This document shows, piece by piece, positions 35,485 through 37,711 of a stretch of 64,000 bases of DNA (the first letter of the stretch is position 1; each line of letters starts with the position of its first letter). The DNA is taken from NCBI GenBank assembly GCA_964016885.1, contig OZ024765.1, positions 9,114,001 to 9,178,000 of the forward strand. The letters run 5' to 3'. Position numbers and translations under genes: made by a program. The notes under the pieces are model-generated. The model was given only the letters and a program-made list of their open reading frames with translations. It was not told the DNA's origin and did no database searches. This DNA comes from Eledone cirrhosa (Eukaryota).

Positions 35485-35792
35485 TATAAAACGAAAAATC
35501 AGTGATGCATCTGGACTCAGTTTATTGTGTGTTACAATTGTTTCGCCGGCAGATAGCTCGAGGCACGATCTTTGTAGGGGTCTGTCTGATTCTAGATCTG
35601 CAGGTTCTTCGGACACATGCATTACTTTCGTGAGAAAATTTGTTCTGAAAGTATTGCATGTGTCCGAAGAACCTACAGGTCTAGAATCAGACAGATCCAT
35701 ACAGTGATCGTGTCTCGAGCTAACTGCCGGCGAAACAATTGTAACACACAATAAACTGAGTCCAGATGCATCACTGATTTTTCGTTTTATAT
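35485..35792. repeat. ~300-bp foldback inverted repeat (arms ~145 bp) with degenerate hammerhead-like motif in each arm
   Basis: Arm aaaacgaaaaatcagtgatgcatctgg...tactttc pairs with gaaagta...ccagatgcatcactgatttttcgtttt. Contains GAAACaauuGUAacac. Confidence 0.9.
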
Positions 35793-35965
35793 ATATATAT
35801 ATATATATTGGAATAAATGCTCTGAAATAGCGATATATATGTGAATATAGACATAGAATATTCGAAAATATTCTGTATGTTTATAATAAACATTTTGAAG
35901 ACCTAATCGCTATAGAATAGAATACGTCACGTATTACAATTAGATTCTCGATAAAAGCAAGGGAA

Positions 35966-36008
35966 GTAATCTACGCGTTTCATTCTTATTAGAAATCTTC
36001 AGGACTAC
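35966..36008 (-). ncRNA. Minimal type I hammerhead ribozyme (identical copies at 36276-36318 and 36586-36628, minus strand)
   Basis: guaguc CUGAAGA u uucu aaua agaa u GAAAC GC GUA gauuac. Confidence 0.78.
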
Positions 36009-37086
36009 ATATCCAGTGCTTTTATCGAGAATGACACAGCTAGAGACTTATAGAATACTTAGCTGTGTACATGAACTGGTTTGAAAGAGCGGTTGCCGGT
36101 CCGGCAGAAATTAGAAATTGGAATAAATGCTCTGAAATAGCGATATATATGTGAATATAGACATAGAATATTCGAAAATATTCTGTATGTTTATAATAAA
36201 CATTTTGAAGACCTAATCGCTATAGAATAGAATACGTCACGTATTACAATTAGATTCTCGATAAAAGCAAGGGAAGTAATCTACGCGTTTCATTCTTATT
36301 AGAAATCTTCAGGACTACATATCCAGTGCTTTTATCGAGAATGACACAGCTAGAGACTTATAGAATACTTAGCTGTGTACATGAACTGGTTTGAAAGAGC
36401 GGTTGCCGGTCCGGCAGAAATTAGAAATTGGAATAAATGCTCTGAAATAGCGATATATATGTGAATATAGACATAGAATATTCGAAAATATTCTGTATGT
36501 TTATAATAAACATTTTGAAGACCTAATCGCTATAGAATAGAATACGTCACGTATTACAATTAGATTCTCGATAAAAGCAAGGGAAGTAATCTACGCGTTT
36601 CATTCTTATTAGAAATCTTCAGGACTACATATCCAGTGCTTTTATCGAGAATGACACAGCTAGAGACTTATAGAATACTTAGCTGTGTACATGAACTGGT
36701 TTGAAAGAGCGGTTGCCGGTCCGGCAGAAATTAGAAATTGGAATAAATGCTCTGAAATAGCGATATATATGTGAATATAGACATAGAATATTCTAATAAG
36801 AATGAAACGCGTAGATTACTTCCCTTGCTTTTATCGAGAATCTAATTGTAATACGTGACGTATTCTATTCTATAGCGATTAGGTCTTCAAAATGTTTATT
36901 ATAAACATACAGAATATTTTCGAATATTCTATGTCTATATTCACATATATATCGCTATTTCAGAGCATTTATTCCAATTTCTAATTTCTGCCGGACCGGC
37001 AACCGCTCTTTCAAACCAGTTCATGTACACAGCTAAGTATTCTATAAGTCTCTAGCTGTGTCATTCTCGATAAAAGCACTGGATAT

Positions 37087-37129
37087 GTAGTCCTGAAGAT
37101 TTCTAATAAGAATGAAACGCGTAGATTAC
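37087..37129 (+). ncRNA. Minimal type I hammerhead ribozyme (inverted copy)
   Basis: gtagtc CTGAAGA tttctaataagaat GAAAC GC GTA gattac. Stem I is 6 bp with one G-U pair, and stem III is the palindrome ACGCGU. Confidence 0.78.
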
Positions 37130-37241
37130 TTCCCTTGCTTTTATCGAGAATCTAATTGTAATACGTGACGTATTCTATTCTATAGCGATTAGGTCTTCAA
37201 AATGTTTATTATAAACATACAGAATATTTTCGAATATTCTA

Positions 37242-37273
<32 letters not shown>

Positions 37274-37276
<3 letters not shown>

Positions 37277-37455
37277 GAACAAGTAAGACCCCGACGGCTG
37301 AGCTCAAGCCGTTTCGACGGCGAATTAGCTGTCGAAACGGCTTGAGCTCAGCCGTCGGGGTCTTACTGGTTCCTATTACCCACTCTACTACCCTAAGTAT
37401 TGAGTACTTTGGTGCGTTCTGGTCCACCTGGTTCCTTACCACATTTCCTTCGTTA
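37274..37455. mobile_element. Short inverted-repeat element with hammerhead 3' halves (family D)
   Basis: ~46-bp arms containing GAAACGGCU ugagcuc AGCCGUC gggguc. Partial copies at 39529-39580 and 54190-54290. Confidence 0.65.
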
Positions 37456-37638
37456 TATATAGATATATATATAAATGAAAAGTATAGAAATTATTGTAGC
37501 AAGAAGCCAACAGTATTCCATAATATATAAGTGACTATAGCGTCAAAATGGGAAAATAGTTAACGTAAGATCATTATATATATATATATATATTAATTCA
37601 AAATATTAACAAAAATAGACATTCGTGTGATCAAGTAT

Positions 37639-37703
37639 ATTTTATTATACATATTTCAGAGGTACTGAGCTATCTTCAACAGTACGTCCTCATCAGATAA
37701 AAT
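37639..37703 (-). ncRNA. Type I hammerhead ribozyme motif (intact core, AUA site)
   Basis: auuuuau CUGAUGA ggac guacug..caguac cucu GAAA uaugua U A auaaaau. Stem I is 7 bp and stem II is long. Confidence 0.7.
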
Positions 37704-37711
37704 AAGATGAT

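What the first reader, a model, noticed from the sequence alone, without database searches (positions are those of the whole stretch)
35485..37705. Ribozyme-element hotspot: four different hammerhead-related families packed end to end between (TA)n runs
Seen: a foldback (35485-35792), the 310-bp array, the family-D inverted element and the 37639 hammerhead are adjacent, separated mostly by (TA)n. Across the window at least six unrelated hammerhead-like sequence families occur, and no Penelope ORF is visible. Inference: a diverse set of non-coding ribozyme retroelements that target (TA)n microsatellites and are mobilised in trans. This is the best candidate for an undescribed system here.
Basis: inference. 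Interest (0 to 1): 0.74.

Follow-up and report, generated by a model that had tools for sequence, protein, structure and literature searches.

The report
Penelope ends plus hammerhead retrozyme cluster
This cluster holds the truncated ends of three protein-coding Penelope-type jumping genes and one non-coding repeat array with a predicted self-cutting RNA motif, all sitting at TA repeats; these are known kinds of element, though the array's matching end pattern suggests it was likely written into the genome by the same kind of enzyme.

Summary
The cluster is real, but it is not an undescribed system. Five TA-anchored insertions lie in 2.3 kb. Three of the four named elements (foldback, family D, the 37639 hammerhead) are 5'-truncated 3' ends of protein-coding Penelope-like elements with Hydra-clade motifs, whose RT/GIY-YIG ORFs lie elsewhere in this genome; D's parent has an intact 717-aa ORF. 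The 310-bp array is a young non-LTR retrozyme. Only the array and 37639 carry canonical hammerheads; the foldback has a U4C variant, and D keeps only the 3' half of its parent's U3-A8 variant. Hammerheads occur about once per 19 kb in a 400-kb genome sample, so the window is not exceptional. TA targeting, inverted arms, one-sided tails and retrozymes as PLE passengers are all published. The one useful addition: 18 of 21 array insertions are two divergent arms ending at two fixed internal sites, the PLE footprint, which ties retrozyme integration to PLE enzymes. Cleavage, RNA circles and the array's partner are untested. The scan noted the same on other DNA, including this 310-nt family.

The parts
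35405..35790 (.). Foldback insertion: two divergent copies of the 3' end of a Hydra-type PLE (family FOLD); left arm carries an ~85-nt tail (35405-35484), right arm stops at the short end
   Evidence: same terminus lies 2.4-4 kb downstream of a GIY-YIG in 6 of 12 fetched stretches
35529..35616 (-). Predicted type I hammerhead variant, core CCGAAGA (U4C), stem II about 60 nt; left arm
   Evidence: CCGAAGA in 28 of 35 copies scored, CTGAAGA in 3
35660..35747 (+). Same hammerhead variant, right arm, stem II partly decayed
35788..35807 (.). (TA)n run shared by the foldback and the array
35808..36796 (-). Retrozyme array, left arm: partial unit, two full 310-bp units, then terminal part ending at unit position 165 (long end); hammerheads at 35967-36007, 36277-36317, 36587-36627
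36791..37245 (+). Retrozyme array, right arm: starts inside hammerhead stem II, one full unit (hammerhead 37088-37128), ends near unit position 127-139 (short end)
37246..37273 (.). (TA)14 between array and family D
37275..37453 (.). Family D: very short two-armed insertion of the 3' end of an apparently active Hydra-type PLE; half hammerheads at 37288-37315 (-) and 37334-37361 (+); ~78-nt tail 37376-37453
   Evidence: (96% identical over 130 nt to the parent)
37473..37575 (-).
   Evidence: 86% to L154 about 230 nt downstream of a hammerhead, 94% to L056; second window copy 41776-41894
37575..37592 (.). (TA)9
37593..37719 (-). Family H: 3' terminus/pLTR of a coding Hydra-type PLE, short end; canonical hammerhead 37639-37704
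   Evidence: same terminus downstream of the GIY-YIG in 16 of 20 loci
37713..38143 (+). LINE 3' fragment ending in (ATT)n inserted into H (CR1/L2-like label recalled, not from a call)
   Evidence: 97.7% to a LINE piece in L141 that lies in an RT C-terminal frame
38141..38186 (-). Continuation of family H beyond the LINE
   Evidence: 97.8% over 45 nt to L131

Best explanation
The stretch is a pile of independent insertions at TA repeats: three are 5'-truncated ends of coding Penelope-like elements with Hydra-clade motifs, and one is a non-coding 310-bp hammerhead retrozyme array that was likely inserted by the same kind of enzyme. Shown: the families, their coding parents, the divergent two-arm layout, the two fixed end points, the TA flanks. 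Inferred from PMC11167929 and PMC8557442: a PLE RT/GIY-YIG protein cuts both strands of (TA)n and starts reverse transcription at two internal sites of one RNA, one per strand; the two cDNAs run inward, stop early and are joined (often with a few shared bases), giving a short end, a tailed end and an inversion. Early stops give tiny foldbacks such as D; on a circular or multimeric retrozyme RNA the same reaction gives multi-unit arms. Each event leaves TA on both sides, which likely attracts the next insertion.
For: H: terminus on the coding strand downstream of the GIY-YIG in 16 of 20 loci, with pLTR copies upstream of the RT in L223, L224, L230; 750-aa frame with DKT, CxCX5C and C-terminal GIY-YIG. 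D: all 40 listed hits are 100% identical over 221 nt; tandem 3531-bp units with a 717-aa ORF and 0-1 differences between units; 7 of 7 long insertions and 25 of 29 short foldbacks have one short and one tailed end in opposite orientation. FOLD: contiguous 3' UTR back to a GIY-YIG with CxCX5C. Array: 18 of 21 insertions are divergent two-arm structures, all 18 with one end at unit position 125-139 and the other at 165-172, not at the hammerhead cut site. The two arms of one insertion are closer to each other than to arms of other insertions in D (0.014 vs 0.044), H (0.042 vs 0.064) and sister retrozyme A2 (0.035 vs 0.040), permutation p<=0.0015. Other-family insertions are about 2-4.6 times denser within 1.5 kb of a family member than in the 400-kb sample.
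Against: No coding element sharing the array's terminus was found (five PLE-bearing loci compared, only short weak matches); its tail (about 25-40 nt) is shorter than the 78-95 nt tails of the three Hydra-type families, so its partner may be another PLE. The arm-similarity test was not significant for FOLD (6 loci, p=0.13). 3 of 21 arrays show one orientation only (one abuts an N run). Long arrays (L344, L348-349) hold mixed units in higher-order repeats, so some growth happens after insertion or from a mixed multimer. Loci were best hits, hence biased to young copies. Clade assignment rests on motifs, not on a tree. Clustering could reflect tolerance of insertions rather than TA targeting.
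Confidence: 0.88

Rival explanations
1. One reading: all four are non-coding ribozyme retroelements, an undescribed trans-mobilised system.
For: No PLE ORF in the window; short D foldbacks are numerous and uniform in junction position, so some might spread as units; the array is non-coding.
Against: Three families are contiguous with RT/GIY-YIG ORFs elsewhere; arms of each D foldback co-vary by subfamily and junctions vary in longer copies, as expected if each is made afresh; retrozymes and their PLE link are published.
Confidence: 0.05
2. The retrozyme inserts as one or two units and the tandem arms grow later by unequal crossing-over or slippage, the local-amplification scenario of bioRxiv 10.64898/2026.07.22.740005.
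For: Higher-order repeats of variant units in L344 and L348-349; L040 has a variant in 7 of 8 informative units, not all.
Against: 158 full units from 21 insertions differ by only 23 changes (0.05%) yet arms already reach 12 units (best-hit bias applies); both arms are multi-unit and keep exact ends.
Confidence: 0.25
3. The foldbacks are MITEs (DNA transposons) with TA target duplication.
For: Terminal inverted repeats flanked by TA.
Against: One end carries an extra tail, arm length varies from tens of bases to kilobases, and long arms contain RT and GIY-YIG sequence.
Confidence: 0.02

Closest known systems
Hydra-clade Penelope-like elements, including Hydra-1_Obim of Octopus bimaculoides (Craig et al. 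2021, PMC8557442; passages, section 11 and supplement rows read)
   Same: C-terminal GIY-YIG, DKT, CxCX5C linker, hammerhead in the terminus, (TA)n insertion, partial tandems, inverted 5'-truncated copy, one-sided tail.
   Different: New families (by eye the D and H proteins differ from the Hydra-1_Obim stretch shown); D unit is 3531 bp rather than under 3 kb; tails 78-95 nt rather than 30-40; D and FOLD carry variant cores (U3-A8, U4C); very high copy number, where the paper reports few families outside cnidarians.
Metazoan non-LTR retrozymes (Cervera and de la Pena 2020, PMC7229834, passages read; Li, Clavereau, Pollet bioRxiv 10.64898/2026.07.22.740005, parts 1-3 of 5 read)
   Same: About 300-bp low-GC tandem units, one type I hammerhead each, no ORF, dispersed; PLEs proposed as the mobilising partner.
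   Different: Two divergent arms, two fixed internal end points and TA flanks are not described in the text read (word counts for inverted/tail/microsatellite were 0 or irrelevant). RNA circles and cleavage are shown there but untested here.
Poseidon PAc from Anolis, in vitro (Frangieh et al. 2024, PMC11167929; parts 1-2 of 4 read)
   Same: Both DNA strands cut and extended; two internal RT start sites that delimit the tail; AT-rich target; hammerhead cleavage not needed for insertion.
   Different: Different PLE clade; no retrozyme template tested.
Natural hammerhead core variants U3-A8 and U4C (Perreault et al. 2011, PMC3088659; passages read)
   Same: U3-A8 covariation is natural and active in vitro; U4C is known from a viroid with reduced activity.
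   Different: Here they sit in PLE termini and in the sister retrozyme A2 (TTGATAA in 51 of 58 scored).

Membership tests
Hydra-clade PLE (parents of H, D, FOLD) | RT followed by C-terminal GIY-YIG in one ORF | tested here: met
   D parent 717 aa intact; H 750-aa frame; FOLD RT and GIY-YIG in order but broken. Pfam gave no hit for the H frame; domains were recognised by motif.
Hydra-clade PLE (parents of H, D, FOLD) | DKG changed to DKT | tested here: met
   Seen in D and H proteins; not inspected for FOLD.
Hydra-clade PLE (parents of H, D, FOLD) | CxCX5C linker, no CCHH in the endonuclease | tested here: met
   Linker read in all three; absence of CCHH judged by eye.
Hydra-clade PLE (parents of H, D, FOLD) | N-terminal RWK motif | tested here: inconclusive
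   D parent has RWR at the matching place; not read for H or FOLD.
Hydra-clade PLE (parents of H, D, FOLD) | Canonical hammerhead in the terminus | tested here: inconclusive
   Canonical in H; predicted variant cores in D (U3-A8 in 4 of 6 distinct copies, C3-A8 in 2) and FOLD (U4C).
Hydra-clade PLE (parents of H, D, FOLD) | Insertion into (TA)n, inverted copy and one-sided tail | tested here: met
   D 25 of 29 short and 7 of 7 long; H 15 of 29 as a simple short+long pair; FOLD 3 of 29 within the 3-kb loci.
Hydra-clade PLE (parents of H, D, FOLD) | RT phylogeny within the Hydra clade | not tested
   Reference proteins were seen only as supplement text and were not loaded for a tree.
Non-LTR retrozyme (310-bp array) | 150-450 bp low-GC tandem unit, one type I hammerhead per unit, no ORF | tested here: met
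Non-LTR retrozyme (310-bp array) | Dispersed mobile copies | tested here: met
   269 matches from 40 of 84 candidates scored, on many chromosomes
Non-LTR retrozyme (310-bp array) | Expressed as linear and circular RNA; self-cleaves | not testable with these tools
   No RNA holder was listed; cleavage needs a bench assay.
MITE / DNA transposon | Symmetric fixed ends, no RT sequence | tested here: not met
   Asymmetric tail; long copies contain RT and GIY-YIG.

The most novel reading that the evidence does not exclude
Animal retrozyme arrays are written into DNA in one step by a Penelope-like enzyme that primes from both strands of a cut TA repeat at two internal sites of a single circular RNA and copies round it, so the two-armed arrays are a direct genomic record of the unsolved retrozyme integration step; this genome also offers an intact, very young Hydra-type element with which to test it.
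Probability: 0.45. Interest if true: 0.55.

Novelty: new member of a known kind. Interest (0 to 1): 0.3.

Why it matters
As a locus it is ordinary for this genome. Its value is for annotation and mechanism. Hydra-type PLEs and their passengers appear to put on the order of 150,000 hammerhead motifs into this 3.0-Gb genome (extrapolated from 21 in 400 kb), and variant cores escape standard searches. The retrozyme's PLE-type ends give a concrete, testable route for how ribozyme RNA units become genomic arrays, which the 2020 and 2026 papers propose but leave open.

Tried and rejected
Rfam: only low-score miRNA matches on hairpins and TA/TG repeats; no hammerhead family in the rows shown. A genome pattern for a canonical-core parent of D found 0 matches; explained later by the U3-A8 core. 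A Pfam accession recalled for PLEs is not in the library, and Pfam does not recognise these Hydra-type proteins. I first took L227 as D's parent; rejected, because there a D-like fragment is a passenger inside another PLE's 3' UTR (18 of 30 loci by motif). The array's coding partner was not found: a profile of four related termini over the loci held and two genome searches returned only short tandem or inverted non-coding copies; the loci were not inspected. Sequencing runs: no RNA holder listed; laying four contig sets was uninformative on expression. MFE folds of single hammerheads recover some stems but not the full three-way junction for FOLD, so its fold is by pattern only. Literature: (octopus + hammerhead ribozyme) and searches listed no paper on octopus retrozymes or two-armed retrozyme arrays; the library lacks most subscription papers, Repbase/Dfam were not available, and the preprint's supplements were not seen. 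PMC13282606 (passages) lists 31 recently active Penelope-like families in O. vulgaris and does not mention ribozymes or Hydra in its main text.

Full report
Observation. The named features are present at the stated places. A structure-aware type I hammerhead scan found 7 motifs in the window against 0.01 per shuffle: four in the 310-bp array, one at 37696 (minus), and two outside the finding (24977, 20395). The foldback and family D did not pass that scan. The window is G000:C26:9114001-9178000 of a 3.0-Gb animal genome; that it is an octopus is my inference from recalled repeat types and earlier scan notes, not a tool result.

Background rate. Forty 10-kb stretches taken at round coordinates held 21 strict motifs in 400 kb, and 28 with a scan that allows variant cores and longer stem II, against 2.2 per 400 kb in shuffles, none of them canonical. 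The window (7 motifs, 4 insertions) is within about twofold of this. Counting eight window-defined families by BLAST gave 1.9 insertions per 10 kb in the window, 0.58 in the sample and 1.1-2.4 in the flanks of family members; the window figure is inflated because the families were defined there. Five insertions in 2.3 kb is still a dense local pile.

Family H (37593-37719). Genome copies often form divergent pairs with one short end and one end about 95 nt longer (15 of 29 as a simple pair). One copy led upstream to a GIY-YIG frame. Of 20 loci fetched from 150 listed GIY-YIG hits (chosen by score or long frame), 16 had the H terminus downstream on the same strand; several also had it upstream of the RT and inverted, the pLTR layout. 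[quoted passage not shown] In the window H is split by a LINE fragment and resumes near 38141.

Family D (37275-37453). All 30 best loci are TA-flanked two-armed pieces with a short and a tailed end (25 of the 29 non-self loci pass the automatic test). A long copy (L177) showed the missing half of the ribozyme and a GIY-YIG C-terminus. Searching with it gave 40 listed hits, all 100% identical, among them a tandem of 3531-bp units, each with a 717-aa RT/GIY-YIG ORF. The core is U3-A8, a known natural covariation (PMC3088659). The window copy is 96% identical to this parent and is truncated within stem II, so it cannot form a full hammerhead. The tail equals the sequence that follows in the next tandem unit, as expected for internal RT starts.

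Foldback (35405-35790). Walking upstream through a long TG-rich 3' UTR reached a third GIY-YIG with CxCX5C. In 6 of 12 fetched stretches the terminus lies 2.4-4 kb downstream of it on the same strand, in 2 more at 6.5-8 kb. Its predicted hammerhead has core CCGAAGA in 28 of 35 copies and CTGAAGA in 3; U4C lowers activity in vitro, so it may be weak or dead. The three parents are about 31-50% identical in protein: distinct families of one kind.

The 310-bp array. It matches the definition of a non-LTR retrozyme (PMC7229834). I fetched 20 of the array loci listed and added the window. 18 of 21 are two divergent arms; in all 18 one outer end falls at unit position 125-139 and the other at 165-172 (counted from the hammerhead cut site), with variable inner junctions that often share a few bases; 17 of the 18 have clear TA runs on both sides by eye. 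The 158 full units differ by 23 changes. A sister family (321-bp unit, U3-A8 core) has the same layout, and its arms share private changes. Two long arrays contain mixed units in higher-order repeats, which points to later local amplification or to a multimeric template; a monomeric circle is therefore plausible but not shown. No coding partner was found.

Mechanism. PMC11167929 shows that a PLE protein cuts and extends both strands of AT-rich DNA and starts at two internal RNA sites that bound the tail; PMC8557442 describes inverted 5'-truncated copies, one-sided tails and (TA)n preference. All four families show this footprint. I infer one reaction for all: two-strand priming at a TA run, early termination, joining of the two cDNAs. 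The arm-similarity test supports one template or one source subfamily per insertion (significant for D, H, A2; not for FOLD). Self-cleavage, RNA circles and the enzyme used by the array are untested.

Verdict. Real, largely known. Three of four elements are ordinary PLE termini, the fourth a new retrozyme family. The two-armed retrozyme footprint was not in the passages I read and is a modest, testable addition; earlier notes of this scan report the same for this family and others, and one of them pointed me to Hydra-1_Obim, which I checked in the supplement. Novelty: new member of a known kind. Interest 0.3.

Noticed in passing
window 22541 (+), 41143 (-), 60664 (-); L143: Family E hammerheads; the 41143 copy is 90% identical to the end of a PLE with a CX4CxxC linker and C-terminal GIY-YIG (Neptune/Nematis-like by motif), so a second PLE clade contributes to the window.
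   Followed up: partly
window 24917-25028 and 26250-26360: Family C foldbacks with a hammerhead in each arm of the first copy, TA-flanked; common in the random sample. Coding parent not sought.
   Followed up: partly
window 20330-20420: Family F hammerhead (20395, minus); parent not sought.
   Followed up: no
window 39530-39580, 54190-54285, 35040-35102: Further diverged family D fragments.
   Followed up: partly
L227:1370-3575; L242-L271: A D-like half-hammerhead fragment has been captured in the TA-rich 3' UTR of another Hydra-type PLE and spread with it (18 of 30 loci by motif).
   Followed up: partly
L344; L348-L349: Long retrozyme arrays (about 29 and over 50 units) with higher-order repeats of variant units.
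   Followed up: partly
L160, L169, L238: Other hammerhead repeats carry an octamer motif upstream of the ribozyme, reminiscent (from memory) of the snRNA-type promoter of newt satellite 2; the 310-bp unit lacks it.
   Followed up: no
window 35160-35400: Short element with inverted ends in TA, resembling a Tc1/mariner-type MITE (by eye); also in L188 and L089.
   Followed up: no
window 24250-24432 (+): Exon of a nucleoside diphosphate kinase (Pfam NDK, E 1.6e-11).
   Followed up: partly
window 57221-57430 (-): Probable exon resembling the N-terminus of wolframin (recalled; no Pfam hit).
   Followed up: no
window 20675-21700, 59600-60436: LINE reverse-transcriptase fragments (Pfam RVT_1).
   Followed up: partly
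window 1-10106: 48-bp satellite, 210 copies, with strong strand skew.
   Followed up: no
runs X4, X5, X6: Three other coded organisms hold a 340-nt contig 3-4 letters different from the 310-bp unit, so the retrozyme family is shared beyond this genome.
   Followed up: no
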